Source: Rhodospirillaceae bacterium (GTDB lineage: Bacteria > Pseudomonadota > Alphaproteobacteria > UBA6615). Taken from it: a DNA stretch of 64,000 nt. The stretch is taken from NCBI GenBank assembly GCA_038132575.1, contig JAYPRP010000002.1, positions 6,802 through 70,801 on the forward strand, in the 5' to 3' direction. Under the pieces are notes generated by a model, which saw only the letters and a program-made list of their open reading frames with translations, made no database searches and was not told the origin of the DNA. Positions 5,512 through 28,035 of this stretch are shown piece after piece; the first letter of the stretch is position 1; the number at the start of each line of letters is the position of its first letter. The position numbers and the translations under genes are program-made.

Positions 5512-6560
5512 GCAACGACGACCGCATTGTCTCCGCCGAGGCGCTCAAGGACTTCACCAAGGCGCTGCTGCGCACCGCCGACGTATCCGAAGAGCATGCC
5601 GAGACCTGGTCCGACATCCTGGTCTGGGCCAACCTGCGGGGTATGGATTCCCATGGCGTGCTGCGGGTGCCGCGCTACATCGCCTACATGAAGAACGGCA
5701 ACATCCACGCCAAGCCCGACATGAAGCTCGAGAAACGCGCGGGCGCCATCGCGATCCTCGATTCCGACTGGGCACCGGGCCCCGTCGCCATGACCCGGGC
5801 GATGGACGAGGCGATCGACCGGGCCCGGGAGTGCCATGTGGGCTGGTGCATCGTCCGCAACATCACCCATGGCGGCGCCATCGGCTACTACGCGCTGCAG
5901 GCCGCGCGGGCGGGCTTCGCGGGTATCGTGATCACCGCCTCACGGCCGATGATGGCCTATCACGGCTCGAAGGTGGCCGGCGCCTCGACCAACCCGCTGG
6001 CGATCGCCGTTCCCGGCGGCGAGCACCCGCCGCTGGTCCTCGACATGTCCACCGCGACCGTCTCCATGGGCAAGATTCTCGCGGCCCAGGACAGCGGCAC
6101 CCCCATCCCCGACGGCTGGGGAATCGACGCCGAGGGCTTCAACACGAACGACGCGAACGCCGTCGCGACCCTCATGCCGCTGGGCGGCGCCAAGGGCTCG
6201 GGACTGTCGATGATGATCGAGTGCATGGTGAGCCTGTTCGCGAGCAACCCGCTGGTCGAACCGAACATCCGACCCGACGCGAACCCGACCGGCTACCGCC
6301 AGAACGGGCTCGCCGCCGCGATCGACATCTCGGCCTTCACCGACCTCGACACCTACCGGTCGGAGATTGACCAGCTCGCCAAGGGGCTGAAGGCGCTGCC
6401 GAAGGCCGACGGCGTTGACGAAATCTACGCGCCCGGCGAGCGCGGCAACGCGGTACTGGCCGAACGCATGAAAGCCGGCATCCCGCTGCCGCCGGGCACC
6501 TGGGACCGGCTCAAGGCAGAGGCGGACACGCTCGGCATCGCAATGCCGGAGACACGGTAG
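5508..6560 (+). CDS. Ldh2-family (malate/L-lactate/ureidoglycolate dehydrogenase-like) NAD(P)H-dependent oxidoreductase, 350 aa.
   Basis: Internal start MSNDDRIVSAE of track ORF 4728..6560. Its ATG overlaps the preceding stop (ATGA). Typical Ldh_2 segments DSHGVLRVPRY and HGGAIGYY. Confidence 0.75.
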   Translation: MSNDDRIVSAEALKDFTKALLRTADVSEEHAETWSDILVWANLRGMDSHGVLRVPRYIAYMKNGNIHAKPDMKLEKRAGAIAILDSDWAPGPVAMTRAMDEAIDRARECHVGWCIVRNITHGGAIGYYALQAARAGFAGIVITASRPMMAYHGSKVAGASTNPLAIAVPGGEHPPLVLDMSTATVSMGKILAAQDSGTPIPDGWGIDAEGFNTNDANAVATLMPLGGAKGSGLSMMIECMVSLFASNPLVEPNIRPDANPTGYRQNGLAAAIDISAFTDLDTYRSEIDQLAKGLKALPKADGVDEIYAPGERGNAVLAERMKAGIPLPPGTWDRLKAEADTLGIAMPETR

Positions 6561-7829: not shown

Positions 7830-8933
7830 TTAGAGCTTCAGCAGCTTCGCCGCGTTCTCACCGAGAATGGCGCGTTTCTGTTCGTCGGACAGGTTCGACC
7901 CCATAACGTGGCCCACCGGATCGGTCTCGGCCATGTCGTAGGGATAGTCGGTGCCCATGATCACATGCTCGGCGCCGTAGTGGTTGGCCAGGAACTCGAG
8001 CTGGTCGTGGGTGAAGACCACGCTGTCAAAGTAGAAGCGCTCCAGATACGAACCCGGCCGCTTGCCTGCAGGCAGCTCGCGCTGCATGTCGGCGCGCAGC
8101 GGATGCGCGTGGTCGATGCGGCCCGGATAGGACCCGAGGAAGCCGCCGCCATGGGCGAGTACCACCTTGAGCCCCGGGTGCCGGTCCATCACACCGTCGA
8201 AGATCAGGTAGTGGACCGCAACCGTGGTCGCCAGCGGATTGCCGATGATGTTGGAGAAGTAGTGGTCCGCCAGCCGGTCGCCTTTGGCGAAGCCCGACGG
8301 GTGGATAAAGACGATGACGTCGAGCTCCTCGCACTTAGCCCAGAACGGATCGAGGCCCGCCCTGGAGAGCTCCTGGCCGGCGACGTCGGCATTGATCTCC
8401 ACGCCGCGCATTCCCATGTCTTTCACGGCGCGCTCAAGCTCGGCAACAGCCATCTGCGAATCCTGCAGGGGCACGGTGCACAGGCCGACGAAACGGTCGG
8501 GATGCTCGCCGACTACCTCGGCCAGCTTATTGTTGACCGTCTGCGCCACCTCGCGGCCCAGGTCCGGCTCCGCCCAGTAGCAGTAATGGTTCGGCGCGGT
8601 GGAGATAGCCTGCACGTCGACCCCGGTCGCGTCCATCTCGGCCAGACGCAGGGACGAGTCCGTGATCTTGGGCATGATGTCCTGGCCGTGGGCCATCTGG
8701 AACTTGCGGGTCTCGTCGTTGGCGAACCAGAGCAGCGGCTCGTTCTGGAGATCGAAGACCTCCTTCACCAGTGCGTCCGCCTCGGGGACATGCAGGTGGC
8801 AGTGTATGTCAACCGTGCGCACGCTGAGTTTCTCGACCTTGACGGTATGCCCGCCCGCGTCGCTGGCGGGGGCGTGGGCGGCATGCCCGTGGGGTTGTCC
8901 CTGAAGATGATTGTGGCCACATCTAAAAAGCAT
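7830..8933 (-). CDS. Amidohydrolase-2 family protein, tandem paralog of 6637..7731, 367 aa.
   Basis: DIHCHLHV, HGGG and TDYPYDMAETDPVGHV motifs. About 55% identical to its neighbour by eye. Confidence 0.75.
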   Translation of the reverse strand: MLFRCGHNHLQGQPHGHAAHAPASDAGGHTVKVEKLSVRTVDIHCHLHVPEADALVKEVFDLQNEPLLWFANDETRKFQMAHGQDIMPKITDSSLRLAEMDATGVDVQAISTAPNHYCYWAEPDLGREVAQTVNNKLAEVVGEHPDRFVGLCTVPLQDSQMAVAELERAVKDMGMRGVEINADVAGQELSRAGLDPFWAKCEELDVIVFIHPSGFAKGDRLADHYFSNIIGNPLATTVAVHYLIFDGVMDRHPGLKVVLAHGGGFLGSYPGRIDHAHPLRADMQRELPAGKRPGSYLERFYFDSVVFTHDQLEFLANHYGAEHVIMGTDYPYDMAETDPVGHVMGSNLSDEQKRAILGENAAKLLKL

Positions 8934-9159
8934 GCGTTTTCCTTCCCGGCTTGACGGGTTTGTTTATGGGTCTCGGCACTTATCAGGAGAAATTCCGGTT
9001 CGCCGGCGGACGCGATTATACAGAAGGAAAACCGTGCGCAAAGTGGCTGAAAACAGCCGCCGCTATTCCATCCCTGCGGGCTTGAATGCTATCGTTTGCC
9101 CAATCGGAAAAACAAAATATCGGCGAATTCGCGCGGGTTTCCCGAAGGAGTATCACACC

Positions 9160-11499
9160 ATGGCATCCGGACAGTTCGGAATTTCCCAGCATGTCACGCG
9201 GCGCGAGGACGCGCGGCTGATCACCGGTGGCGGCGCCTACGCCGACGACACCGGCTTCGAGGGACAGGCGTTCGCCGCCTTCCTGCGCGCGCCTATCGGT
9301 CACGGGGTGATCAAATCGGTCGATACGTCGGCGGCGGCGAGCGCGCCGGGTGTGATCGCCGTCTACATCGGACAGGACCTGCGCAACGCGGGCATCGGCG
9401 CGATCCCCAACGTCACGCCGTTCCCGAACCGGGACGGATCCGAGATGCTGCGAACCCAGCGTCCGGCCGTCGCCGTCGACAAGATCTATCATGTGGGCGA
9501 GATCGTCGCGGTGGTGGTCGCCGAGAGCACGGCGCTGGCCCAGGACGCCGTCGACCTGATCGACCTGGACATGGACACTCTGCCGGCGCTGACCGATGTG
9601 CGCGAGGCGGCGAAAGCCGGCGCACTGCAGCTACATGAGAATATCCCCGGCAACGTCTGCCTCGATTTCCAGATCGGCGACGAGGCGAAGGCGAAGGCCG
9701 CGATCGCGGGTGCCGCCCACGTGGTGGAGCTGACACTGACGACCAACCGGCTGGCCGTGGCGGCGATGGAGCCGCGCAGCGCGGCTGCGCGCTTCGACCC
9801 GGCCGCGAATGAAGGCGCCGGGCGATACGACCTGATCACGGGATCCCAGGGCGTGAACGCCATGCGGAACATGCTCGCCGGCGCGATCTTCGACGTGCCC
9901 CATGAGCAGATGCATGTGATGACCAACGATGTAGGCGGCGGCTTCGGTATGAAGACACAGGCCTATCCGGAGTATGTGGCGATTCTGTTCGCGGCGAAGG
10001 CCTGCGGCAAACCCGTCAAGTGGCAGGGCACGCGATCCGAGGCGTTCCTCGCCGACAACCAGGCCCGCGACGGGGTGATGCACGGCACCATGGCCTTCGA
10101 CGAAGACGGGAAAATCCAGGGCTTCCGGGTCAACATGATCGCGGCGATGGGCGGCTATCTCTCGTCCCATGGCCCGGCCGCGGCGACCCGTAACGTCTGC
10201 AACTGCCTGACTGGCTGCTACGACAACCCGGCGCTGGAATTCCAGGTGAAGTGCCTGATGACCAACAACGTCCCCATCGGCCCCTATCGCGGTGCCGGGC
10301 GGCCCGAAGCGGCTTATATACTGGAGCGGATGATGGACCATGCGGCGCGCCAACTCGGAATCGACCGGGTGGAGCTGCGCCGGCGGAACTTCATCAAGCC
10401 CGACCAGATGCCCTACACTACCTCGCTTTCGCAGGTATATGATTCCGGCGAGTTCGAGGCCGAGATGGACAAGGCCCTCGCGCTGGCCGAATGGGACAGT
10501 TTCGAGGAACGCCGCGCGGCAAGCGCAGCCAATGGCAAGCTGCGCGGCATCGGCATGTCCTGCTTCGTGGAGACCGCGGGCGGCATGTTGCAGGAGGGCG
10601 CCAAGCTTGCCATCGGCGAGGACGACACCGTCGAGGCCCGGCTGGCCGTCCAGTCCAACGGCCAGGGACATGTTACCAGCTTCGCGCAGGTCGTGTCCGA
10701 ACTGCTGCAGGTCCCCTACGAGAAGGTGCGCATCATCGAGGGCGACAGTTTCGAGACCCCGGGCACCGGCTTCGCCTCGGTCGCCTCGCGCTCCATGGCG
10801 CTGGCCAGCGGCGCGATCTCACTGACGGCCGACGCCATGATCGACAAGGGGCGTAAACTCGCCGGCCATGTGCTGGAGGCCGCGGAGGCGGACATCGAGT
10901 ATGCGGATGGCACCTTCACCGTCGCCGGGACCGACCGGTCAGTCGACATCTTCGCGCTCGAAGAACAGGCCCGGTCCTTGGGCGACCTGCCCGAGGGCAT
11001 CCCGGACAGTCTCGCGTCGGAAGAGGATTTCGACTCGCCCGAACAGACCTATCCCAATGGCTGTCACATCTGCGAGGTGGAGATCGAGCCCGAGACCGGC
11101 GTCATCGACGTGTTGAGCTATATCGCCGTCGATGATTGCGGCACGGTCATCAACCCGATGATTGTCCACGGCCAGGTGCATGGCGGCGTCGCCCAGGGCC
11201 TCGGTCAGATTCTCGGCGAGCATGCCGTCTATGACGAGGATGGCCAACTGCTGGCCGGCTCCTTCATGGACTACATGATGCCGCGGGCCGACGACATGCC
11301 CGACATGAAGCTCGGCTTCCACTCGGTGCCCTGCACCACCAACCCGGTGGGCGCCAAGGGCGCCGGCGAGGCCGGCACTACCGGTGCGCTGGCTGCCGGC
11401 ATGAACGCCATCGTCGACGCGCTTTCGGTACACGGCATCACCGAATTCGACATGCCGGCCACGCCGCCGCGGGTCTGGGCAGCGCTGAACCGGAACTAG
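9160..11499 (+). CDS. Xanthine dehydrogenase/CoxL-family molybdopterin-binding subunit (form-II CODH-like large subunit), 779 aa.
   Basis: Internal start MASGQFGISQHVTRREDARL of track ORF 8911..11499, preceded by a GAAGGAG RBS. Active-site loop GPYRGAGRPEA and C-terminal GAKGAGEAGT (catalytic Glu). Confidence 0.8.
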   Translation: MASGQFGISQHVTRREDARLITGGGAYADDTGFEGQAFAAFLRAPIGHGVIKSVDTSAAASAPGVIAVYIGQDLRNAGIGAIPNVTPFPNRDGSEMLRTQRPAVAVDKIYHVGEIVAVVVAESTALAQDAVDLIDLDMDTLPALTDVREAAKAGALQLHENIPGNVCLDFQIGDEAKAKAAIAGAAHVVELTLTTNRLAVAAMEPRSAAARFDPAANEGAGRYDLITGSQGVNAMRNMLAGAIFDVPHEQMHVMTNDVGGGFGMKTQAYPEYVAILFAAKACGKPVKWQGTRSEAFLADNQARDGVMHGTMAFDEDGKIQGFRVNMIAAMGGYLSSHGPAAATRNVCNCLTGCYDNPALEFQVKCLMTNNVPIGPYRGAGRPEAAYILERMMDHAARQLGIDRVELRRRNFIKPDQMPYTTSLSQVYDSGEFEAEMDKALALAEWDSFEERRAASAANGKLRGIGMSCFVETAGGMLQEGAKLAIGEDDTVEARLAVQSNGQGHVTSFAQVVSELLQVPYEKVRIIEGDSFETPGTGFASVASRSMALASGAISLTADAMIDKGRKLAGHVLEAAEADIEYADGTFTVAGTDRSVDIFALEEQARSLGDLPEGIPDSLASEEDFDSPEQTYPNGCHICEVEIEPETGVIDVLSYIAVDDCGTVINPMIVHGQVHGGVAQGLGQILGEHAVYDEDGQLLAGSFMDYMMPRADDMPDMKLGFHSVPCTTNPVGAKGAGEAGTTGALAAGMNAIVDALSVHGITEFDMPATPPRVWAALNRN

Positions 11500-11546: not shown

Positions 11547-11576
11547 CGCGGGTCCGAGACCCGCCCTTCTCTATTT
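11547..11576 (+). terminator. Rho-independent terminator GCGGGTC-cga-GACCCGC followed by a T-rich run (ccttctctatttc).
   Basis: 7-bp GC stem plus a U-rich tail 48 nt after the stop of the 9160..11499 gene. Confidence 0.55.
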
Positions 11577-11592
11577 CGGCATCAACCTCGTG

Positions 11593-12132
11593 TCAGGCGG
11601 CGGCAAGCGGCCGCGCATCGAGGGTTTTCATGAAGAGATGCGCGGCGTGGTAGATCGCTAGAAAGGTGCCGATCTCCATGATCTGCGCCTCCGTCCAGTG
11701 TTCGCGCATCTGCTCGTAGAAGATCGCATCGACCTTGTCGGGGTCGAGGAAAAGCTGGTCGGAGAAGCGCAAGGCCATCCGTTCCGCCTCGGTAAAGAGC
11801 TCCGAATCCTCGTAATCATCGCAGCCGGCGTCGATGCGTTCTTCGGTCAGGCCTTCTGCAATCGCCCGTTTGGATCGCAGTGCCGAGAAATAAGGATCCT
11901 CGACGAAGCGCGCGAGCTGGATGCGGATGATCTCCTTGAGCTGGTGATCGACCGTACCCTTGGTGTGCAGCTCGAGCATCACGCCCAAGAGCGTCTTCGC
12001 CTGGGCCGGGACCCGCGCGATGATGCACGGAAACAGCTCGTCCGGCACGCCGAGTTCAACGCACTGAGCCGTGAGATCACGGAGTTCGGGATCCTCGATC
12101 TGGTCGAGTTCGAGAGGTGCGAGACGGGACAT
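11593..12132 (-). CDS. Carboxymuconolactone decarboxylase (CMD/AhpD-like) family protein that lacks the CxYC redox motif, 179 aa.
   Basis: Clear paralog of the upstream gene (LDHKLKEVIRVML vs VDHQLKEIIRIQL). At the motif position it has FVEDPYFSAL. Confidence 0.7.
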   Translation of the reverse strand: MSRLAPLELDQIEDPELRDLTAQCVELGVPDELFPCIIARVPAQAKTLLGVMLELHTKGTVDHQLKEIIRIQLARFVEDPYFSALRSKRAIAEGLTEERIDAGCDDYEDSELFTEAERMALRFSDQLFLDPDKVDAIFYEQMREHWTEAQIMEIGTFLAIYHAAHLFMKTLDARPLAAA

Positions 12133-12752
12133 TATTCGGCCGCCTCCCCCTGGAGCGATTCCGGGGTCGCCCCATAGATCTCCGCCGATTCCTCCTGGCT
12201 CACCAGGCGTCCATCCGGTGCGAACATCGGGTAGAACTTCAGGGATCCGAAAAAGGTGTGGAAGCCGAGGTTACCAACCAGGAACATCCCCAGTTCGGCG
12301 ATCTCGTCCTCGCTCAGGTGGGCGCGCAGATCGTCCCAGTCGTCATCATCAAATGAGTCCGCGTCCGTCGAGATTTTCTCGACATAGCGCATGATCGCCT
12401 TTTCCTTCTCGGAGAAGACATCGCTGCCGGCATGGTTGTTGATGCCGTCGTCGAGGAGTTTTTCGTCAAGTCCTTCCCGCTTCGCCGAAGCAGAACGAAC
12501 GTTGCCTCAGTAACTGCAATGGGCCATGCGCGACAGCATCACCCGGATAACTTCCTTGAGTTTGTGGTCGAGTGCCCCCTCGTTGAACACGCTGGTCCAG
12601 AACAGGTAGGCCTTCTCGGCGAGGTCCACATTGTGGCCCATGACCGCGTGGAAGCCGGGGTCCGGCGCACGCAGCTCAAGGGATTTCTCGATATACGGCT
12701 TGAGCTTGGTCTTCTTCAGCTCTTCGATATCGAGCAGGGTGATATTCGGCAT
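12132..12752 (-). CDS. Candidate selenoprotein of the AhpD-like (CMD) peroxidase-related family: CSYU motif with in-frame TGA at 12507..12509, about 206 aa read-through.
   Basis: Track ORFs 12507..12752 and 12132..12392 are in the same frame and separated by a single TGA. Read by eye: ...RMAHCSY-TGA-GNVRSASAKREGLDEKLLDD.... Homology to the neighbouring CMD paralog continues across the TGA. The TGA occupies the second Cys of the AhpD CxYC motif. A stem-loop candidate lies downstream. selA/selB/selC/selD are in the window. Confidence 0.6.
12476..12494 (-). other. Candidate bacterial SECIS hairpin (mRNA 5'-UCUGCUUC-GGC-GAAGCGGG-3') starting about 13 nt after the UGA of the AhpD-like gene.
   Basis: 8-bp stem including G-U pairs, with an apical loop containing G. 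The spacing fits the bacterial SECIS window. Confidence 0.3.
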
Positions 12753-12807
12753 ATCGCTCTCTCAATCGTTTGGTGCCGGGGCACCGTAGCAAAAACAAGA
12801 TGTGTTC

Positions 12808-13137
12808 TCAGGCATGTTCTTCAATCGCCTTCTTGAGGACCTGGCGGCGATCGACGCCGGTGCGGGTCTCCACGACCTCTCCGTCCTTGAAGAACATGAG
12901 CGTCGGGAAGCCGCGCACACCATAGCGCGACAGCAGGTCGAGATTCTCGTCACCATCGACGGTGCCGATCACCACATTCTCGGGAAGCTCCTCGTTCACC
13001 TGTCCGAGAATCTTCTTGAGCTGCTTGCACGGCACGCAGGTCTTGGACCAGAAGTCGACGACGGTCAGCCCCTCGCGTTCGAGGACCTCGGTGTGGAAGT
13101 TGGAATCGTCGAAAATCGCAAGATCTTCCAGCGCCAT
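12808..13137 (-). CDS. Thioredoxin, 109 aa.
   Basis: Internal Met MALEDLAIFDDSNF of track ORF 12808..13593. WSKTCVPCK active site and the FPTLMFFKDGE motif. It is the first gene of an operon with the AhpD-like genes. Confidence 0.8.
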   Translation of the reverse strand: MALEDLAIFDDSNFHTEVLEREGLTVVDFWSKTCVPCKQLKKILGQVNEELPENVVIGTVDGDENLDLLSRYGVRGFPTLMFFKDGEVVETRTGVDRRQVLKKAIEEHA

Positions 13138-13355
13138 GGCCTCACTCCTCGTGGCGAATGTCCGGCACAATATATAGCGGAGCCCCCGGGCACGGACAAA
13201 CGCGCGCCCGGCACAAATCATATGCATCGTACCAGGACCGAAATCGTGGATTTCCGGGGGTTCGGGGAACGAAACCCCCAGCGGAGCACGAAAATTCACG
13301 CCCGTCGCGCGGTTCAGCCATGCACCCGCTGCAAACGCGCCCGCGCGGCGCGCCT

Positions 13356-14507: not shown

Positions 14508-14727
14508 TCCGGCGCCTCGATCCTTCTTGGGTCGACCGCACGCGCCCGATCTTCGGGCGCGCGGGTGCGCAACAAGGCGACCATCCTGGCGGGAAAAGGT
14601 TAAGCAACGGCATACATGACGAATTGTTTCGACAGGCAAAACGACGGGCCGGGCACCGTTGAAACCTCGCGGAGACGCGTGATGAAGTGCCCACATCGAA
14701 TATTGCGGGATGCAGGAGAACGCGCAC

Positions 14728-15297
14728 ATGAAGACCATCGACATCGGGCCCGACGGCATGGCCGAACACATCGTGCGCCGCGCGGGATGGCACCCGAAGC
14801 AGGGCAACTACACCGAGCTCGGCATCCCGACCGAGGCCTACGAGATGCTGACGGCGAAGACCCTCTACACCCTGCTCGCACCGGGCAACGCGGCGGGCTC
14901 GCACCAGTTCACCTCGGCGAAGGGACCGGACGGGCTGTCCATCTCCATCGCCGAATGTCCGCCCGGCGACGGCCCGATGCTGCACGCCCACATGGAGACC
15001 CACGAGATCTTCTTCTGCCTCGAGGGGCGCTTCGAGCTGCGCTGGGGCGACGCGGGCGAGCATTCCGATGTGCTCGACCGCTTCGACATGGTCGACGTGC
15101 CGCTCGGCGTGACCCGCGCGTTCCGCAACATCGGCGATGACACAGCGCTGTTGCTGGTGATTATCCTCGGCGGCAACCAGAACGATATCGGATATGCCCG
15201 CTCTGTCGGCGACGAGGTGGCCGCAAAGTACGGCGCGGATGTACGCAACGCGATCGAGGCCCACACCTCGATGAAGTTCAACGTGGGAGCCGAATGA
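14728..15297 (+). CDS. Cupin domain protein, 189 aa.
   Basis: Start MKTIDIGPDG preceded by a CAGGAGAA RBS. Cupin motifs HAHMETHEIFFCLEG. Confidence 0.6.
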   Translation: MKTIDIGPDGMAEHIVRRAGWHPKQGNYTELGIPTEAYEMLTAKTLYTLLAPGNAAGSHQFTSAKGPDGLSISIAECPPGDGPMLHAHMETHEIFFCLEGRFELRWGDAGEHSDVLDRFDMVDVPLGVTRAFRNIGDDTALLLVIILGGNQNDIGYARSVGDEVAAKYGADVRNAIEAHTSMKFNVGAE

Positions 15298-15821
15298 TGG
15301 CGGCGAGGACCGCCTACAAGCGCCGCGCCGGGGAGGGGATCGAGCTGCCGCCCGAGACCGTCGCCCGGTCGATCGCGCCCTTCGAAGCGCTGGAGCTGGA
15401 CCCGGACGCGTTCCGCGACGCGAACAACCCCGACCTGCGCCTGGGCATCCGCTGGGTCATCTCGCCGGACAACATGGCCGGCCCGGCGGCGATCGACGCA
15501 CCGCACTCGTTCCATCTCTGCTACATCCAGTCCGAGCCCGGTCACCACCCGGTGCTGCATGCCCACGAATACACTGAGACCTTCATCTGCATGCGTGGCC
15601 AGTACACGATCCACTGGGGCAACGAAGGCCAGAACAAGGTCGTCCTCAACCCCTACGACACCTTCTCGGTTCCGCCGCACCTGATGCGTTCGGTCGAGAA
15701 CACCGGCGAAGAGGTGGGCATGGTGATGGTGATCTATGGCGACCACCCCGACCCGAACGCCGGGATCGTTGTACCCCAGTCCATCATCGACGCGGACAAG
15801 GCAGCGGGCCGGGATATCTAG
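15294..15821 (+). CDS. Cupin domain protein, 175 aa, tandem to the previous cupin.
   Basis: Start overlaps the upstream stop (ATGA). HAHEYTETFICMRG cupin motif. Confidence 0.6.
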   Translation: MMAARTAYKRRAGEGIELPPETVARSIAPFEALELDPDAFRDANNPDLRLGIRWVISPDNMAGPAAIDAPHSFHLCYIQSEPGHHPVLHAHEYTETFICMRGQYTIHWGNEGQNKVVLNPYDTFSVPPHLMRSVENTGEEVGMVMVIYGDHPDPNAGIVVPQSIIDADKAAGRDI

Positions 15822-17913: not shown

Positions 17914-19320
17914 ATGGCCGACCCAAGCCCCGACTTCTCCGCGATCCCCTCGCTCGACCGCCTGTTGCAGGCGCCGTCGGTCGCCACCCTCGTGGAATCG
18001 CACGGACGCGCCGCGACGACGGCGGCACTGCGCGCGGCGCTCGACGGCGCCCGCGGGACGATCGCGGCGGGCGACGCAGCTGACCTCTCGGAAGATGCCT
18101 TCGCGCGAACGGCGGCGGCGCAACTCGCGCGCGCGGCGGCCCCCGGGCTGCGCCGCGTCTTCAACCTGACCGGCACCGTGCTGCACACAAACCTGGGCCG
18201 GGCGCCGCTGGCCGAAGCGGCAATCGAGGCGATGGCCGAGGCCGCGCGCGGCGCGAGCAACCTGGAATACGATCTCGACAGCGGCAAGCGCGGCGACCGG
18301 GACACCCATGTCGAGGAACTGCTCTGTGAGCTGACAGGTGCCGAGGCCGCGACAGTCGTGAACAACAATGCGGGCGCCGTCCTGCTGCTCCTGAACGCGC
18401 TGGCGCTGCGCAAGGAAGTGCCCGTCTCGCGCGGCGAGCTGGTCGAGATCGGCGGCGCCTTCCGGATTCCCGACATCATGGCGCGGGCGGGCGCCAAGCT
18501 GGTCGAGGTCGGTACCACCAACCGGACCCACGCCCGGGACTTCGAGGGTGCGATCGGCGCCAGGACCGCGCTGGTGATGAAGGTCCACACGTCGAACTAC
18601 ACGGTCCAGGGCTTCACCGCCGACGTGCCCGAGGGCGATCTCGCCGGGATCGCCCACGCGGCGGACATTCCCTTCGCCGTCGATCTGGGTGCCGGGGCGC
18701 TGGTGGATCTCGAGCGCTGGGGCCTGCCCCACGAGCCCACCCCGCGCGAGACGCTGGCGGCGGGCGCGGACATCGTCACCTTCTCCGGCGACAAGCTGCT
18801 GGGCGGCCCCCAGGCGGGGCTGATCGTCGGGCGCGCGGACCTGATCGCGCGGCTCAAGAAGAACCCTCTCAAGCGTGCGCTCCGCTGCGACAAGGCAACC
18901 CTCGCCGCGCTGGCCGCGACCCTGATGCTCTACCGCGATCCCGACCGGCTGGCTGAACGGCTGCCCACGCTCAAGCTCCTGGCGCGTGGGGCGGACGATA
19001 TTCGCGCCGTCGCGGGATCGCTGCGCGACGCGGTTGGCGAGGCCGTCGGCGACGCGTTCACGGTCTCGGTCGAGGACTGCGCCGGACAGATCGGATCGGG
19101 CGCGCTCCCGGTCGAGAGCCTGGGCAGCGCCGCACTGGTCATCCGGCCGGCCGCGGTGCGCGGCCAGGGCGCGAAACTCAAACGGCTGGCGGCATCGCTC
19201 CGCGCCTTGCCCGTGCCGGTCATCGGGCGCGTGCATGACGACGCGCTCTGGCTCGACCTGCGCTGCCTCGACGATACCGACGGCTTCTGCGCCCAGCTCC
19301 AAAATCTGCACACATCATGA
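17914..19320 (+). CDS. selA: L-seryl-tRNA(Sec) selenium transferase (selenocysteine synthase), 468 aa.
   Basis: [15 protein letters not shown] and the PLP-lysine motif [13 protein letters not shown]. Size and order match selA; it is followed by selB with a 4-nt overlap. Confidence 0.9.
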
Positions 19321-21227
19321 TCATCGCGACCGCGGGCCATATCGATCACGGCAAGACCCTGCTCGTGAAATCGCTGACGGGCGTCGACGCCGACCGCCTG
19401 CCGGAAGAGAAAAAGCGCGGCATGACGCTCGATCTCGGCTTTGCGTACACCGACCTCGAGAACGGCGCGCGGCTCGGCTTCATCGACGTGCCGGGCCATG
19501 AACGCCTGGTCCACAACATGCTGGCGGGCGTGACCGGCATCGACTGCGCGCTGCTCGTGGTCGCGGCGGACGACGGCCCCATGCCCCAGACGCTCGAACA
19601 CCTGGCGATCCTCGATATCCTGGGCGTCTCGCGCGGGATGGTCGCGCTCACGAAGATCGACCGGGTGGACGCATCCCGCGTGGCCGAGGTCCGGGACGAG
19701 ATCGAACTGCTGATCTGTGAAACTTCGCTGGCGGGCGCGACGGTGTTCCCGGTCTCGGCGGTCACCGGCGACGGGATCGAGGCGCTGCGGGAAGAAATCG
19801 CCGACATGGCCGCGGTCACCGAGGCGCGCTCCGGCGCAGGGCATTTCCGCCTCGCCGTCGACCGGGTGTTCACCGTCGCAGGCGCCGGCCTGGTGGCGAC
19901 CGGCACCGCCTTCGCCGGCACGGTCTCCCGCGAGGACCGGCTGTGGATCGCGGGGCACGACGTGCAGGCGCGCGTCCGCGGCATTCACGCCAACAACACG
20001 GACAGCGAGACAGGCCGGGCCGGAGACCGGCTGGCGCTCAACCTCGCCGGGCTCGACAAGGACGACATCGCGCGCGGCGACTGGTTGGTGGCCGATTCCG
20101 GGCTCGGGCTCTACCGCAAGCTGGATGTCCGGCTGAACGTGGTCGCCGATGCCAAGAGGCCGCTGCGGCACTGGACCCCCGTCCATGTGCATCTCGGCGC
20201 GCGGAACGTCACCGGCCGGGTGGCGATCCTCGGCGCCGACAGCGCCGCGCCGGGGAGCAACGTACCGGCGCAGCTCGTGCTGGACGCGCCCGTCGGCGCG
20301 TGCGTGCGCGACCGGTTCGTCATTCGCGACCAGTCGGCACAGGTCACGCTCGGCGGCGGGCACGTAGTGGATCTGCATCCGCCGCGCCGGGGGCGCGCCA
20401 GGCCGGAACGCCTCGAGCTGCTCGACGCCCTCGACACGCCCGACGCCGAGACGGCACTTGCCAGCGCACTGGCCCGGTCCCCGACCGGCCTGTCGATCGC
20501 CGACTTCGCGGCGGAGCGCAACCTGACCGAGGCCGAGATGTCCGCCGCTCTTTCGGCGACCGGCGCGGCGTCGGCGGGAACCGGCGCGGATGCGCTTGCG
20601 ATCGCGCAAGACGCCTGGGCCGCGCGGCGCGAGGAGTTGCTCGCCGCCCTCGACCAGTTCCACACGCGCTACCCCGACCGGCTGGGGCCCGCCGCGGCAC
20701 AGCTGCGCAAGAGCGTCGGCCGGTTCATCCCGGAGACCCTGTTCGACGCGGTCAGCGCGAAGCTGGTCGCCGACGGCACCATGTCGAGCGACGGGATGCT
20801 GCTGCACCGCCCGGATCACCGGCCGGGCCTGACGGGCGACGACGCGAAGCGCTGGGAAGCGCTGCAGCCCTATCTGAACGAGACGCCGGCAAGCCCGCCG
20901 GTGGTGCATGACCTGGCCCAGGCCGCCGGCCTCCCGGTCAACGGCGTCGGCAAGACGCTGCGCCAGGCGGTGCGCATGGGGCTCGCCGTGCAGATTGCCG
21001 AGAACCGGTTCTTCCTGCCCGCAGCGCTGCGCGCGCACGCACGGACCTTCGAAGCGATGATCGCCGCCGACGGCAGCGTCGGTGTGTCGCCATTCCGCAA
21101 GGAAGCGGGAATCGGACGGAATCTCGCCGTCGAGTTACTGGAGTATTTCGATCGGGTCGGCCTGTCACAGCGCGACGGGAATGTTCGTCACCAGCTCCGG
21201 CCGGTCGAAGAAGTGTTCGGCGCCTAA
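19317..21227 (+). CDS. selB: Selenocysteine-specific translation elongation factor, 636 aa.
   Basis: N-terminus [22 protein letters not shown] with G-domain motifs DVPGHE and TKID. A long C-terminal extension is consistent with SECIS-binding winged-helix domains. Confidence 0.9.
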
Positions 21228-23121: not shown

Positions 23122-23919
23122 ATGACCATCACCGTGATCCAGACCCTCGACGTGGAGCCCGAACGCATGGAGGAGCGGGACGGCTGGGCAATCTCGGAGT
23201 TCCGGCTGCCGATCACCGGCGAGACCGGGAGCGCGACGACGGTGTTCCACTCGATCTTCCGGCCGGGCTCGACCCACGCCAAGCATCTGCACGAGGTGAG
23301 CGACGAGATCGCGGTGTACCTGTCGGGCCACGGCGTCGTCGGCCAGGGCGAGAGCCGGGCCGTGGTGACCGCCGGGCACTGCCGGCTGATGCCGAAGGGC
23401 TCGGAGCATTTCTTCTATAACGAGACGACCGACGAGGATGCGAAGGTTATCGGCTTCTACATGAATGCGCCGAGCGTCGCGGGCACCGGCTACCAATTCT
23501 GCGGAACGGTGAGCGACGACGACCTGACGCGCGACCGTGACGGCCTCAACGAGGGCATTCTCGTGCGGCTGGAGGAGACCGCGGCACCGGGTGACGGCGT
23601 TCCCGAGGCGTGGCGCGATGCGGCGTTGAAGGCACCCATCGGCGCCCACAACGGCAGCGAGAATTCGCTGGTCCACGCCGCGCTCGCCCCCGGCGCGAAA
23701 ATCGCCGAACACGCGCTGGCCGGGGCCGAGGCGATCTACTACATCGTATCGGGGACCGGGCTGGCCGTGGATGGGGACGGCGAGTCGGCCATCGCGGCCG
23801 ACAGCTTCGTGTTCGTGCCGCGCGGCGCAAGCCACGCGATCCGCAACACCGGCACGGCGGCGCTGGAACTCTATATTGTGCTGACCGGCGCGGGCAGCCT
23901 GGCCGCGGCCGCCGGCTAG
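23122..23919 (+). CDS. Bicupin protein (two cupin domains), 265 aa.
   Basis: Two cupin motif sets (HAKHLHEVSDEIAVYLSGHG and AEHALAGAEAIYYIVSGTG). Confidence 0.6.
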   Translation: MTITVIQTLDVEPERMEERDGWAISEFRLPITGETGSATTVFHSIFRPGSTHAKHLHEVSDEIAVYLSGHGVVGQGESRAVVTAGHCRLMPKGSEHFFYNETTDEDAKVIGFYMNAPSVAGTGYQFCGTVSDDDLTRDRDGLNEGILVRLEETAAPGDGVPEAWRDAALKAPIGAHNGSENSLVHAALAPGAKIAEHALAGAEAIYYIVSGTGLAVDGDGESAIAADSFVFVPRGASHAIRNTGTAALELYIVLTGAGSLAAAAG

Positions 23920-25623: not shown

Positions 25624-25719
25624 GGAGGAGGACCGTTCCCCGGTGGGGCGCCCGGTCTTCAAAACCGGTGAGGGGCGTTAGACGTGCCTGGTGGGTTCGA
25701 CTCCCACCCTCTTCCGCCA
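25624..25719 (+). tRNA. selC: tRNA-Sec (anticodon UCA), 96 nt including encoded CCA.
   Basis: 8-bp acceptor stem GGAGGAGG/CCTCTTCC (one G-U pair). 6-bp D-stem. Anticodon stem CCGGT/ACCGG with loop CTTCAAA (anticodon TCA). Long variable arm. 5-bp T-stem GTGGG/CCCAC with TTCGACT loop. Discriminator G, then CCA. The 8/5 architecture is diagnostic of bacterial tRNA-Sec. Confidence 0.85.
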
Positions 25720-25812: not shown

Positions 25813-28035
25813 ATGACCCCGACCGTCCCGATCACACATGATATTGTCCTGATCGGCGGCGGCCATAGCCATGTGGCCGTCCTCAAGCGGTTCGGCATGA
25901 AGCCCGAGCCCGGGATCCGGCTGACTCTGATCACCCGGGACCTGCTGACACCCTATTCGGGCATGATCCCCGGCTACATCGCCAACCATTACAGCGCGGC
26001 CGAGGCGCATATTGACCTGCGCCCCCTCGCCGCCTTCGCCAACGCCCGGATCATCCACGCGGCGGCGACGGGGCTGGATCTGCAAAACAACTATGTCCAG
26101 GTCGCCGGCCGCCCGTCCGTGGCGTTCGATCTCGTCTCCGTCGACACCGGCTCGACCCCGTCAACGGCAGACATCGTCGGCGCCGGACACGGGTTGCCGG
26201 TGAAACCCATCGACCGCTTCCTTGAAACGTATCACCGCCTGACCGACGAGATCAGGAACCATCGTGGCCCGTTCCACATCACCATTGCGGGTGGCGGCGC
26301 GGGCGGGGTCGAGCTCGCGCTCGCGCTGCGCCACCGGCTGGGGCTGGCGGCACCGGGCCTCGGTAAGCGCCCCGGCGATCTCCGCTTCGCCATCGTCGAG
26401 GCCGCCGATACGCTCTTGCCCGGCTACAACAGGGCGGCCCGCCGCAAGCTCGCCCGCGCGCTCGCGGACCGCGGGATCGCCGTGCAAACCGGCGCGGGCG
26501 TGACACAGGTCGGGCCGGATACGGTGACCCTCGCCGACGGCGGCGTGCTTGACAGTGACAGAACGATCCTGGTGACCTCGGCCGGACCGCCCCACTGGCT
26601 CGCGGACAGCGATGTGGCGCGCGACGACCGCGGCTTCGTGCGGGTCGATGCGACGCTCCGCTCGCCGTCGCATCCGCAACTCTTCGCCACCGGCGACGCC
26701 GCCTCGATGGACGGGCACGCGCTGCCGAAGGCGGGGGTCTATGCCGTCCGCCAGGGGCCTTACCTGGCCGAGAACCTGGGCCGCGCGGCGCGGGGCCGGC
26801 CGCTGCGCAGCTACCGGCCGCAGGGCCAGACCCTGGCGCTCATCACCACGGGCGACAGGTTCGCCATCGCCGCACGCGGCTCGCTCTCCGTTCAGGGCGC
26901 CTGGGTGTGGCGCTGGAAGGACTGGATCGACCGACGCTGGATGCGCAAATACCAGGAGCTGCCGGACATGGATGCGGGCGACGGCGCGGACGGCGACGCA
27001 ACGCTCGAGGCCATGCGCTGTGGGGGCTGCGGCGCCAAGGTGCCGGCCCCGGTGCTCCGCCGCGCGCTCGACCGTTTGCCGCCGCAGGAAATCGAGGGCC
27101 TCGACCAGGGGCTGGATTCACCCGACGACGCAGCGGTCCTCACCCCGCCGCCGGGCAAGGCACTAATCCAGACCGTCGACCAGTTCCGCGCCTTCATCGA
27201 CGATCCCTATCTCTTCGGACGCATCGCGGCCAACCACTGCCTGGGCGATATCTTCGCAATGGGCGCCGAGGCCCATTCAGCACTGGCCGCGGTGATGCTG
27301 CCCCACGGCGAGGACGCGAAGACGTCCGACGATCTCTACCAGCTGCTCGCGGGTGCGACCGAGACCCTTGCAGAGGCCGGCGCGGTTCTCGCCGGCGGCC
27401 ACACCGGCGAGGGTGCGGAGATGGCCTTCGGCCTGACGGTCAACGGCTATGCCGATCCGGACACCATCCTGCGCAAGGGCGGGCTCGCGCCCGGCGACGC
27501 CCTAATCCTCACCAAGCCGCTCGGCACGGGCGTCCTGTTCGCCGCCGACATGCGTGCCAAGGCGGGCGGCGACCATGTGACGGCGGCGTTCGCCTCCATG
27601 CAGCGCTCGCTCGCGCTGGCGATCCCGGTGGTCCGGGACCATGGCGCGCACGCCGCCACCGATGTCACCGGCTTCGGGCTGGCGGGGCACCTGCTGGAGA
27701 TGCTCAACGCATCGGGCGTCGATGCCGAGCTCGAGCTCAACGCGCTGCCGGTCCTGCCGGGCATCGCCGCGCTGGTGGCCGCCGGCCATGAGAGCACGCT
27801 CCGGCCCGGCAACGAGGAGGCGGTCGGCAACGCCGCGCCCGTCTCAGCGCACCCGAACTTCCCGCTGCTGTTCGATCCGCAGACCGCGGGCGGGCTTCTC
27901 GTTGGCGTCCCGAGCGAACGGGCCGAGGCCTGCCTTGACGCGCTCCGCGCCGGCCCCGCGCCGGACGCGACGATTATCGGGCAAGTCACTGCAAGGATGG
28001 GCGACGTCTGCGTGCTGCGCTACGCCGAAACCTGA
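25813..28035 (+). CDS. selD: Bifunctional protein: N-terminal FAD-dependent pyridine-nucleotide-disulfide (NADH dehydrogenase-like) oxidoreductase domain fused to selenide, water dikinase, 740 aa. Cys-type active site.
   Basis: N-terminus DIVLIGGGHSHVAVLK (Rossmann FAD motif) and a second GGGAGGVELA nucleotide-binding motif. C-terminal half has SelD hallmarks: MRCGGCGAKV (catalytic Cys, not Sec) and an AIR-synthase-like fold. Confidence 0.85.
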   Translation: MTPTVPITHDIVLIGGGHSHVAVLKRFGMKPEPGIRLTLITRDLLTPYSGMIPGYIANHYSAAEAHIDLRPLAAFANARIIHAAATGLDLQNNYVQVAGRPSVAFDLVSVDTGSTPSTADIVGAGHGLPVKPIDRFLETYHRLTDEIRNHRGPFHITIAGGGAGGVELALALRHRLGLAAPGLGKRPGDLRFAIVEAADTLLPGYNRAARRKLARALADRGIAVQTGAGVTQVGPDTVTLADGGVLDSDRTILVTSAGPPHWLADSDVARDDRGFVRVDATLRSPSHPQLFATGDAASMDGHALPKAGVYAVRQGPYLAENLGRAARGRPLRSYRPQGQTLALITTGDRFAIAARGSLSVQGAWVWRWKDWIDRRWMRKYQELPDMDAGDGADGDATLEAMRCGGCGAKVPAPVLRRALDRLPPQEIEGLDQGLDSPDDAAVLTPPPGKALIQTVDQFRAFIDDPYLFGRIAANHCLGDIFAMGAEAHSALAAVMLPHGEDAKTSDDLYQLLAGATETLAEAGAVLAGGHTGEGAEMAFGLTVNGYADPDTILRKGGLAPGDALILTKPLGTGVLFAADMRAKAGGDHVTAAFASMQRSLALAIPVVRDHGAHAATDVTGFGLAGHLLEMLNASGVDAELELNALPVLPGIAALVAAGHESTLRPGNEEAVGNAAPVSAHPNFPLLFDPQTAGGLLVGVPSERAEACLDALRAGPAPDATIIGQVTARMGDVCVLRYAET

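What the first reader, a model, noticed from the sequence alone, without database searches (positions are those of the whole stretch)
12132..13137. trx / AhpD-like operon in which the AhpD-like gene carries an in-frame TGA exactly at the resolving Cys of the CxYC motif (CSYU)
Reading through the TGA at 12507..12509 gives a continuous 206-codon frame. The sequence after the stop (GNVRSASAKREGLDEKLLDD) aligns with the adjacent Sec-less paralog (SALRSKRAIAEGLTEERIDA). Recent nonsense decay would not be expected to preserve the downstream frame and conservation. The stop sits at the position of the second Cys of the AhpD-family xGCxYC motif. CxxU AhpD-like selenoproteins are a known family. A thioredoxin gene is the first gene of the same operon. 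The downstream paralog has lost the redox motif entirely (FVEDPYF).
Basis: partly seen in the sequence, partly recalled or inferred. Interest (0 to 1): 0.8.

Follow-up and report, generated by a model that had tools for sequence, protein, structure and literature searches.

The report
Known CMD/AhpD-like selenoprotein gene, confirmed
The in-frame TGA is real and almost certainly encodes selenocysteine in an AhpD/CMD-fold redox protein, but this exact protein family was already predicted to be a selenoprotein in marine metagenome surveys of 2005 and 2008, so it is a sound but unsurprising find.

Summary
On the minus strand, trx (13137..12808), a CMD/AhpD-like gene (12752..12132) with an in-frame TGA at 12509..12507, and a paralog without the redox motif (12132..11593) form a three-gene unit flanked by terminator-like hairpins.

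The TGA is not decay:
- All 64 homologous gene copies in 63 Alpha- and Betaproteobacterial genome loci carry TGA at this column (C-x-Y-TGA-GNVRSASAK).
- A hairpin follows directly. Its 7-bp upper stem has loop GGC at nt 24-26 from the U of UGA and shows compensatory changes. The four codons at its top are frozen at synonymous sites.
- The window itself encodes selA, selB, tRNA-Sec and an Ndh-SelD fusion.
- Cys homologs at or below about 40% identity place the second Cys of CxYC at this column.

The family is not new. Members with the same CNYuGNVRSASAK motif are listed as "CMD domain-containing protein" (Sargasso Sea, 2005) and under "AhpD-like 1" (GOS, 2008).

I did not find the following described in the papers I read:
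- an always-adjacent paralog (D-x-Y-F in place of C-x-Y-U), fused in frame in some Betaproteobacteria;
- a dedicated C[V/A]PC thioredoxin in 39 of 64 loci;
- repeated physical linkage to the sel gene cluster.

The parts
12808..13137 (-). Thioredoxin gene (109 aa) with non-canonical active site WSKT-C-V-P-C. It is the first gene of the unit.
   Evidence: Pfam Thioredoxin 83.5 bits. A homolog lies directly upstream on the same strand in 39 of 64 loci, with active site CVPC in 35 and CAPC in 4, and a gap of 11-57 nt to the Sec gene in all but one locus (172 nt in L064).
12132..12752 (-). CMD/AhpD-like selenoprotein gene: 206 codons, Sec82, motif E67-x11-C79-S-Y-U82-x3-R86.
   Evidence: An AlphaFold2 model of homolog P0001 has mean pLDDT 92.2. 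Foldseek TM is 0.67-0.75 to Bmp8 (6ohi/6ohj) and to the ~190-residue AhpD-core / peroxidase-related proteins (2prr, 3c1l, 6k40, 2pfx, 2oyo).
12507..12509 (-). UGA codon read as selenocysteine.
   Evidence: TGA is present at this column in 64 of 64 homologous copies. Cys occupies the column in more distant homologs. Published family members carry U here.
12470..12500 (-). SECIS-like hairpin inside the coding sequence. The upper stem is nt 17-23 / 27-33 counted from the U of UGA (12493..12487 with 12483..12477). The loop GGC is nt 24-26 (12486..12484). The lower stem is nt 10-13 / 37-40.
   Evidence: Folded at -16.1 kcal/mol. Pair 18:32 is C-G in 28, U-A in 13 and U-G in 12 sequences, never unpaired. 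Pair 21:29 is U-A in 52 and C-G in 1 (L049). Codons +6 to +9 (GCT TCG GCG AAG) have normalised synonymous entropy 0.06, 0, 0, 0, against a minimum of 0.34 in 71 other conserved columns.
11593..12132 (-). Paralog (179 aa) with D-P-Y-F in place of C-S-Y-U. Its start overlaps the stop of the Sec gene (TAATG).
   Evidence: 28% identity, gapless, E 5e-29. It lies downstream in every locus that extends far enough. D.YF is at least 90% conserved, and no Cys is universally conserved. It is fused in frame to the Sec protein in L044 and in many metagenomic proteins such as P0007, P0009, P0010, P0017 and P0018.
11548..11564 (-). Terminator-like hairpin plus T-run, 29 nt after the paralog's stop.
13297..13311 (-). 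Terminator-like hairpin after the upstream DctP-like gene. It separates that gene from trx.
17914..19320 (+). selA (selenocysteine synthase).
   Evidence: Pfam SelA 541 bits.
19317..21227 (+). selB (Sec-specific elongation factor).
   Evidence: GTP_EFTU, SelB beta-barrel, SelB-wing_2 and SelB-wing_3.
25624..25719 (+). selC (tRNA-Sec, anticodon TCA).
   Evidence: ARAGORN. Rfam RF01852 71.2 bits over 25624..25715.
25813..28035 (+). Pyridine-nucleotide-disulfide-oxidoreductase / SelD fusion (selenophosphate synthetase).
   Evidence: Pyr_redox_2 plus AIRS and AIRS_C. An Ndh-SelD fusion is mentioned in the GOS paper, PMC2398784.

Best explanation
The TGA at 12509..12507 is a selenocysteine codon. 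SelB carrying Sec-tRNA(Sec) would bind the hairpin that starts 10 nt after the UGA (conserved 7-bp upper stem, GGC loop at nt 24-26) and insert Sec82. This yields a 206-residue AhpD/CMD-fold protein with the redox motif C79-S-Y-U82.

The protein most likely works as a thiol/selenol oxidoreductase. By analogy with Cys133 of M. tuberculosis AhpD, and with the usual placement of Sec, the selenolate of U82 attacks an oxidised substrate such as a peroxide, a sulfenic acid or disulfide on a partner protein, or another electrophile. Cys79 then resolves the adduct into a selenenylsulfide, and the co-transcribed C-V-P-C thioredoxin reduces it again.

The translationally coupled paralog has kept the fold but carries D-x-Y-F at the active site. 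It is probably a non-catalytic partner subunit, because in some Betaproteobacteria it is fused to the Sec protein in one polypeptide.

Shown here: the conserved TGA, the hairpin with covariation and frozen synonymous sites, the Sec machinery in the window, the fold and motif alignment, the synteny and the fusion. Inferred: actual Sec insertion, which residue is the nucleophile, reduction by the thioredoxin, the heteromer, and the substrate.
For: - TGA is conserved in 64 of 64 copies across Alpha- and Betaproteobacteria down to about 55% identity.
- Protein databases hold the family almost only as fragments. These either end at ...C-x-Y or start just after the TGA. The 'full-length' entries have W at that column, which I read as TGA translated as Trp by the gene caller.
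- In the hairpin, pair 18:32 covaries (C-G 28, U-A 13, U-G 12, none unpaired) and L049 carries a double compensatory change at 21:29. 83% of cells are paired, against 28-55% when the 3' partners are slid.
- Synonymous sites of codons +6 to +9 are frozen. S-A-S-A-K is invariant in the Sec forms but variable in the Cys homologs.
- selA, selB, selC and selD lie within 16 kb in the same window.
- selA/selB lie within 6 kb in 24 of 64 loci, and tRNA-Sec lies close to the operon in 14 of the 44 loci scanned, in several different arrangements.
- TGA is an ordinary stop here: trx and the paralog both end in TGA.
- The 38 codons between the TGA and the next ATG (12392) are among the best-conserved in the protein and have no start codon of their own in the window (GTT, not GTG).
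- Pfam CMD is above its cut-off. E-x11-C-x-x-C aligns with solved AhpD-like proteins, and the fold is confirmed.
- Published members of the same family are annotated with U at the same column.
Against: - There is no direct evidence of selenium incorporation for any member of this family.
- The hairpin's folding energy is unremarkable for 66% G+C sequence (z -1.66 on 50 nt, -0.43 on 73 nt).
- Only two pairs show changes on both sides. Because the element lies in coding sequence, part of its conservation is protein-driven.
- The His at +4 of the AhpD proton relay is Arg here. This is also true of the Cys homologs of this subfamily, so it is a subfamily trait.
- No peroxiredoxin gene is in the unit, so an AhpC-reductase role is not indicated.
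- trx is absent from 25 of 64 loci.
- The heteromer rests only on adjacency, start/stop overlap and fusion.
Confidence: 0.9

Rival explanations
1. Pseudogene: a nonsense mutation has inactivated an AhpD-like gene, and the downstream frame is a decaying remnant.
For: Standard gene callers split the gene, and databases hold it as fragments named 'hypothetical protein' or 'carboxymuconolactone decarboxylase family protein'.
Against: The same TGA occurs in 64 of 64 copies from two proteobacterial classes. The downstream 124 codons are open and conserved at the protein level. The hairpin is conserved. The Sec machinery sits alongside.
Confidence: 0.01
2. Two separate products: translation stops at the UGA, giving an 81-residue peptide, and the C-terminal part is made from an internal start. 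The conserved hairpin would then serve another purpose, such as coupling or stability.
For: Some homologs have GTG or ATG at the Val/Met two codons after the TGA, and callers start ORFs there (P0005 VRSAS..., P0006 MRSAS...). In bacteria UGA-Sec decoding competes with RF2, so some truncated product is expected anyway (general knowledge).
Against: In the window that Val codon is GTT and the first ATG is 39 codons downstream (12392), yet the intervening residues GNVRSASAKREGLDEKLLDDGI are highly conserved. An 81-residue piece would cut the CMD fold inside the active-site helix, directly after C-x-Y. Cys homologs are single chains.
Confidence: 0.03
3. The UGA is decoded as something other than Sec, for example Trp or Cys by near-cognate read-through, or through a reassigned genetic code.
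For: Four database entries show W at this column (P0001-P0004).
Against: Those W entries come from short metagenomic contigs (1009-1319 nt). I take the W to be the gene caller's translation of TGA; the contigs themselves were not inspected. trx and the paralog in the same unit end in TGA, so TGA is a stop in this genome. The genome is 66.5% G+C Alphaproteobacterial sequence. tRNA-Sec, selA, selB and selD are present. The column is a redox Cys in homologs.
Confidence: 0.03
4. Rival on function: it is not a peroxide or disulfide reductase. One alternative is a reductive dehalogenase of the Bmp8 type, which acts on a halogenated small molecule by thiol/selenol chemistry. Another is a protein that handles selenium itself for the neighbouring SelD/SelA pathway.
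For: The best structural match in the PDB is the tetrabromopyrrole debrominase Bmp8 (Foldseek E 8e-6, TM 0.69-0.74; profile E 4e-23). The hosts are largely marine. The operon abuts sel genes in many lineages.
Against: Identity to Bmp8 is only 23-24%, and AhpD-core 'peroxidase-related' proteins match about as well (TM 0.67-0.75). No bmp-type halogenase genes were seen next to the operon. Linkage of a selenoprotein gene to sel genes is also expected if it is simply the main client of the pathway.
Confidence: 0.15

Closest known systems
'CMD domain-containing protein' selenoprotein family (Zhang, Fomenko & Gladyshev 2005, Sargasso Sea, PMC1088965). The same sequences are listed under 'AhpD-like 1' in the GOS selenoproteome (Zhang & Gladyshev 2008, PMC2398784), and the family appears as 'CMD-like protein, PF02627, CxxU' in a 2026 review (PMC13188914).
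   Same: It is the same orthologous family. Published members read ...VIRVQLSRAADCNYuGNVRSASAKQQGLTEELIDDGIDNY..., with U at the same column. The window protein is 52% identical, without gaps, over 179 residues to JCVI_READ_1558542. The CxxU motif and marine origin also match.
   Different: The published entries are single reads and computational predictions classed as 'candidate redox proteins'. In the passages I read I found no mention of the adjacent paralog, the fused form, the dedicated thioredoxin or the linkage to sel genes. The window adds a full operon and its Sec machinery in one contig.
Mycobacterium tuberculosis AhpD (alkylhydroperoxidase D; CMD family)
   Same: All-helical CMD fold. 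The E-x11-C-x-x-C signature aligns with E67-x11-C79-x-x-U82. The second Cys (Cys133) is the residue that attacks the partner (PMC6626918, PMC3141380).
   Different: Sec replaces the second Cys. His137 of the proton relay is Arg86, and His132 is Tyr81 (as in PA0269). No ahpC gene is adjacent. The reductant encoded alongside is a thioredoxin. In M. tuberculosis the reductant is a lipoamide system (my recollection, not checked here).
Bmp8 tetrabromopyrrole debrominase (PDB 6ohi, 6ohj)
   Same: It is the best structural match to the model (TM 0.69-0.74) over the whole ~190-residue chain. Its G-C-M-Y-C motif aligns with H-C-S-Y-U.
   Different: Identity is 23-24%. The residue replaced by Ala in the substrate-complex crystal of Bmp8 (C82) is the first Cys of the motif, not the column that is Sec here. 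No bmp gene cluster is present in the context.
NCBIfam NF053654 'YciW-related (seleno)protein' and TIGR01926 'peroxidase-related enzyme'
   Same: Same superfamily and similar length. These are the best NCBIfam matches.
   Different: Scores are far below the cut-offs: 42.5 against 310, and 44.7 against 81.8. The protein is not a member by the curated criteria, and no NCBIfam model in release 20.0 captures this family.

Membership tests
Bacterial selenoprotein gene (UGA-Sec recoding) | In-frame UGA flanked on both sides by conserved coding sequence, and conserved among orthologs | tested here: met
   64 of 64 copies carry TGA. The frames are open and conserved up- and downstream.
Bacterial selenoprotein gene (UGA-Sec recoding) | Stem-loop immediately 3' of the UGA, with a G near the start of the apical loop, roughly 16-37 nt from the UGA (bSECIS consensus as I recall it from Zhang & Gladyshev's bSECISearch; E. 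coli fdhF has G23/U24) | tested here: met
   The loop GGC lies at nt 24-26, on a 7-bp upper stem conserved in 60 sequences, with covariation at 18:32 and 21:29 and frozen synonymous sites. bSECISearch itself was not available.
Bacterial selenoprotein gene (UGA-Sec recoding) | Host encodes selA, selB, selC and selD | tested here: met
   All four are in the window.
Bacterial selenoprotein gene (UGA-Sec recoding) | Homologs with Cys at the Sec column | tested here: met
   Examples are P0149, P0159, P0171, P0195, P0197 and P0179, with C-x-Y-C at 27-33% identity to homolog P0001 in the alignment.
Bacterial selenoprotein gene (UGA-Sec recoding) | Selenium demonstrably incorporated (75Se labelling or mass spectrometry) | not testable with these tools
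   No experimental data were found for this family.
CMD / AhpD superfamily (Pfam PF02627) | Profile match above the curated threshold | tested here: met
   28.3 bits against a cut-off of 23 for the read-through protein. The paralog reaches only 17.7 bits.
CMD / AhpD superfamily (Pfam PF02627) | All-helical AhpD-like fold | tested here: met
   The AF2 model of homolog P0001 has pLDDT 92.2 and pTM 0.87. Foldseek probability is 1.00 to 6ohi, 2prr, 3c1l, 6k40 and 2ijc.
AhpD proper (M. tuberculosis type) | Proton-relay signature E-x11-C-x-H/Y-C-x3-H | tested here: not met
   E67, C79, Y81 and U82 are present, but position +4 is Arg86, not His. The Cys homologs of this subfamily also have Arg there.
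AhpD proper (M. tuberculosis type) | Genetic linkage to the peroxiredoxin AhpC that it reduces | tested here: not met
   The unit is trx, the Sec gene and the paralog. Its neighbours are a DctP-like binding protein and an ORF I take to be a molybdenum hydroxylase large subunit (not profile-checked). No Prx gene was seen next to the operon in the loci examined.
AhpD proper (M. tuberculosis type) | Alkylhydroperoxidase / AhpC-reductase activity | not testable with these tools
   This needs an enzyme assay.
'CMD domain-containing protein' / 'AhpD-like 1' predicted selenoprotein family (2005, 2008) | Sequence-level orthology with published members, with U at the same column | tested here: met
   The motif CNYuGNVRSASAK appears in AACY01716242, AACY01688758, JCVI_READ_1558542 and JCVI_READ_1510389. 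Identity is 52%, gapless.
NCBIfam TIGR01926 / NF053654 (YciW-related selenoprotein) | Score at or above the curated cut-off | tested here: not met
   44.7 against 81.8, and 42.5 against 310.

The most novel reading that the evidence does not exclude
The Sec protein and its D-x-Y-F paralog form an obligate heteromer with one catalytic and one non-catalytic subunit; in some Betaproteobacteria the two are fused into one chain. The complex is recycled by a dedicated C-V-P-C thioredoxin. This three-gene module travels together with selC-selB-selA(-selD) as a compact 'selenium island', and may be the principal reason these lineages keep the Sec machinery. Its substrate need not be a peroxide. A Bmp8-like reductive dehalogenation, or a step in selenium handling, is not excluded.
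Probability: 0.3. Interest if true: 0.5.

Novelty: already known. Interest (0 to 1): 0.3.

Why it matters
Practically, this is a gene that ordinary annotation splits into two 'hypothetical' fragments. In the protein database almost every hit is such a fragment, and no NCBIfam model reaches its cut-off. Recognising it fixes the annotation of this window and of dozens of MAGs.

Biologically, the family has been on selenoprotein lists since 2005 with no known function. The context assembled here gives concrete handles for finding that function:
- a dedicated thioredoxin;
- an always-present paralog with an altered active site;
- natural fusions of the two proteins;
- tight linkage to the sel genes;
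- one cultured host, Rhodoplanes tepidamans DSM 9987.

It does not change what is known about Sec decoding.

Tried and rejected
I used database homolog P0001 instead.
- Rfam at gathering threshold found only tRNA-Sec and no SECIS family in the window.
- The sigma-70 promoter scan found nothing upstream of trx. This is uninformative for an alphaproteobacterium.
- I considered that Arg86 replacing the relay His might be an adaptation to Sec. I rejected this because the Cys homologs of the subfamily also have Arg at +4.
- I considered that the paralog might carry a different conserved redox Cys (Cys104, motif A-G-C). I rejected this as a general feature because it is present in only 40 of 58 sequences.
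- I looked for a conserved replacement for trx in the 25 loci without it. The upstream genes are heterogeneous: cupins, an aminotransferase, a cyclase and a GrdB-like fragment.
- A crude scan of the window for further in-frame-TGA genes (both halves with high GC3) gave 22 candidates. Apart from this gene, the four I checked had no Pfam support on either side, and most of the rest looked like adjacent genes or antisense frames (one search was a coordinate error).
- Literature searches for Bmp8 found only reviews, so the roles of its two Cys residues rest on the PDB entry titles and sequences alone.
- Neither a second structure job on a fused form nor a multimer prediction was possible.
Full report
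**Observation**

On the minus strand an ORF starts at ATG 12752 and reads 81 codons to ...SRMAHCSY. It then meets TGA at 12509..12507 and continues in frame for 124 codons (GNVRSASAKREGLDEKLLDD...) to TAA at 12134..12132.

A 109-residue thioredoxin gene lies 55 nt upstream (13137..12808; Pfam Thioredoxin 83.5 bits; active site C-V-P-C). A 179-residue paralog lies downstream (12132..11593), and its ATG overlaps the TAA as TAATG. Terminator-like hairpins on the same strand sit before trx (13311..13297) and 29 nt after the paralog (11564..11548), which delimits a three-gene unit.

With the TGA read as a sense codon, the protein passes the Pfam CMD model (28.3 bits, cut-off 23). It aligns without gaps to the paralog over 178 residues (28% identity, E 5e-29). 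The paralog has Asp at the Cys79 column and Phe at the TGA column.

**Is the TGA meaningful?**

A scan of one genome per species (GTDB) returned 64 loci from Alphaproteobacteria and from Betaproteobacteria/Burkholderiales. The alphaproteobacterial loci are mostly marine Rhodospirillaceae MAGs; the closest, L001, is 97% identical at the protein level. There is one cultured organism, Rhodoplanes tepidamans DSM 9987.

All 64 gene copies in 63 of these loci carry TGA at this codon, in the context C-[SVTN]-Y-TGA-GNVRSASA[K/R]. L023 carries two copies. The 64th locus, L062, holds a hybrid gene discussed under side observations.

The protein database tells the same story:
- Nearly all of the 141 hits are ~120-residue fragments starting just after the TGA, or N-terminal fragments ending in ...C-x-Y.
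- The four 'full-length' entries show W at that column. I read this as TGA translated as Trp by the gene caller.
- An exhaustive HMMER search of 1.84 billion representatives found Cys-containing relatives only at about 40% identity or less. In the alignment, their C-x-Y-C places the second Cys exactly on the TGA column.

TGA is an ordinary stop in this genome, since trx and the paralog both end in TGA.

**Recoding signal**

The 50 nt after the UGA fold into a hairpin of -16.1 kcal/mol. The energy alone is unremarkable for 66% G+C sequence (z -1.66).

Across 60 sequences (53 distinct) the upper stem is conserved. It spans nt 17-23 paired with 27-33, counted from the U of UGA, with loop GGC at nt 24-26.
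- Pair 18:32 is C-G in 28 sequences, U-A in 13 and U-G in 12, and is never unpaired.
- Pair 21:29 is U-A in 52 and C-G in one (L049, GCCUC...GAGGC).
- 83% of cells pair, against 28-55% when the 3' partners are slid by 1-3 columns.

The four codons forming the top of the hairpin (GCT TCG GCG AAG, Ala-Ser-Ala-Lys) have normalised synonymous-codon entropy 0.06, 0, 0, 0. The lowest value among 71 other amino-acid-conserved columns of the gene is 0.34. S-A-S-A-K is invariant in the Sec forms but variable in the Cys homologs. That pattern is what an RNA-level constraint predicts.

The position of the loop matches what I recall for E. coli fdhF (G23/U24) and the bSECIS consensus. That comparison rests on my own knowledge, not on a tool.

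**Machinery**

The same window encodes:
- selA (17914..19320);
- selB (19317..21227);
- tRNA-Sec (25624..25719; Rfam 71 bits);
- an oxidoreductase-SelD fusion (25813..28035).

selA/selB lie within 6 kb of the operon in 24 of 64 loci, in at least three arrangements:
- In L027-L031 the order is selC-selB-selA, then trx-Sec gene-paralog, then selD. L032 matches as far as its contig reaches, though no tRNA-Sec was found in it.
- In several Burkholderiales loci, tRNA-Sec lies 20 nt to about 700 nt beyond the paralog.

**What the protein is**

Sequence and profile searches of the PDB align H-C-S-Y-U with the CxxC motif of several proteins: Atu0492 (CAFC), D. radiodurans AhpD (CVYC), PA0269 (CAYC) and Bmp8 (CMYC). 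The conserved Glu sits 12 residues before the first Cys (E67).

An AlphaFold2 model of homolog P0001 is confident (pLDDT 92.2, pTM 0.87). It matches Bmp8 (TM 0.69-0.74) and the ~190-residue 'AhpD core / peroxidase-related' proteins 2prr, 3c1l, 2pfx, 2oyo and 6k40 (TM 0.67-0.75).

The His at +4 of the M. tuberculosis proton relay (PMC3141380) is Arg86 here. The Cys homologs of the subfamily also have Arg, so this is not a Sec-specific adaptation.

In M. tuberculosis AhpD the second Cys (Cys133) attacks AhpC Cys61, and Cys130 is the buried partner (PMC6626918). Roles may nevertheless differ among members. In B. thailandensis AhpD the first Cys matters more. In Bmp8 the first Cys (C82) is the one replaced by Ala in the substrate-complex crystal.

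**Partners**

The paralog is directly downstream in every locus that extends far enough. It conserves D-x-Y-F at 90% or more in place of C-x-Y-U, and it has no universally conserved Cys. It is fused in frame to the Sec protein in L044 and in many metagenomic proteins of 276-352 residues. I take adjacency, start/stop overlap and fusion as evidence, by inference, for a heteromer of a catalytic and a non-catalytic subunit.

The thioredoxin is present in 39 of 64 loci, always with C-V-P-C (35 loci) or C-A-P-C (4 loci) rather than C-G-P-C. Where it is missing, the upstream genes are heterogeneous.

**Novelty**

The supplement of the Sargasso Sea selenoproteome paper (PMC1088965) lists AACY01716242 and AACY01688758, named 'CMD domain-containing protein'. 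Their sequence is VDHKLKEVIRVQLSRAADCNYuGNVRSASAKQQGLTEELIDDGIDNY....

The GOS supplement (PMC2398784) lists JCVI_READ_1558542 and JCVI_READ_1510389 under 'AhpD-like 1', with the same motif. The window protein is 52% identical to the former without gaps. A 2026 review still lists 'CMD-like protein, PF02627, CxxU'.

The family is therefore an already published, computationally predicted selenoprotein without experimental characterisation. No NCBIfam model reaches its cut-off, which explains the fragmented annotations. The paralog, the fusion, the dedicated thioredoxin and the sel linkage were not mentioned in the passages I read. I did not read those papers in full.

**Verdict**

Confidence that the TGA encodes Sec is about 0.9. 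Confidence in the redox cycle with thioredoxin and in the heteromer is moderate. The substrate is unknown.

**Side observations**

- L062 carries trx followed by a hybrid gene. It has the N-terminus of the Sec protein and switches at KEIIRIQLAR into the paralog, with no TGA, and tRNA-Sec lies next to it. This is either recombination between the tandem paralogs or an assembly collapse.
- L023 has the Sec gene and paralog duplicated in tandem.
- L033, L043 and L045 have, two genes upstream, a fragment matching the C-terminal part of GrdB/PrdB. This is possibly another split selenoprotein gene.

Noticed in passing
window 17914..21227 (+), 25624..25719 (+), 25813..28035 (+): The complete selenocysteine machinery lies in the window: selA, selB (its start overlaps the end of selA), tRNA-Sec, and a 740-residue fusion of a pyridine-nucleotide-disulfide oxidoreductase domain with SelD. 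An Ndh-SelD fusion is mentioned in the GOS paper.
   Followed up: partly
L062:6001..6543: After trx there is a single hybrid gene. It has the N-terminus of the Sec protein and switches at KEIIRIQLAR into the paralog (FAGDSYF), with no TGA. tRNA-Sec lies about 700 nt downstream. This is either a real deletion by recombination between the tandem paralogs (loss of Sec) or an assembly collapse.
   Followed up: partly
L023:6001..8200: Tandem duplication: two copies of the Sec gene (TGA at 6241 and 7531), each with its own paralog. Both keep the TGA and the hairpin.
   Followed up: partly
L033:4623..5159, with equivalents in L043 and L045: A 178-residue ORF matches only the C-terminal part (profile positions 227-345 of 347) of GrdB/PrdB selenoprotein B. 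It lies two genes upstream of the Sec gene, with selC-selB-selA downstream. It may be the post-TGA half of a second selenoprotein gene.
   Followed up: no
window 14710..15821 (+) and 23122..23919 (+); L041:539..1501; L051:4899..5823; L056:5515..5973: Cupin-domain genes recur next to the operon in unrelated lineages. In L041 and in L051, L054, L056 and L058 they are directly upstream on the same strand, in place of trx. Cupins are common, so this may be chance.
   Followed up: partly
protein P0164 (376 aa): A two-domain relative reads ...GNCEYWATHRSASARRDGL..., with W at the Sec column of its first domain. It may be another TGA-containing (Sec) branch of the family with a different architecture.
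   Followed up: no
alignment A2, columns about 185-200: Many Cys homologs (P0149, P0159, P0171, P0195, P0197, P0210, P0226, P0230) have a conserved extra Cys near the C-terminus (for example PESCEL, AHTCQV, EEACAL). At that place the Sec forms instead have the invariant tail FYPMF[AS]PDGRLVSQEES.
   Followed up: no
window 8911..11499 (+): An 862-residue ORF converges on the operon's terminator. From reading its sequence I take it to be a molybdenum hydroxylase (xanthine / CO dehydrogenase-type) large subunit; it was not profile-checked. A homolog of 80% identity or more lies next to the operon only in the closely related marine lineage (L001-L020); three other loci have weak hits of 23-42%. 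This is probably plain synteny.
   Followed up: partly
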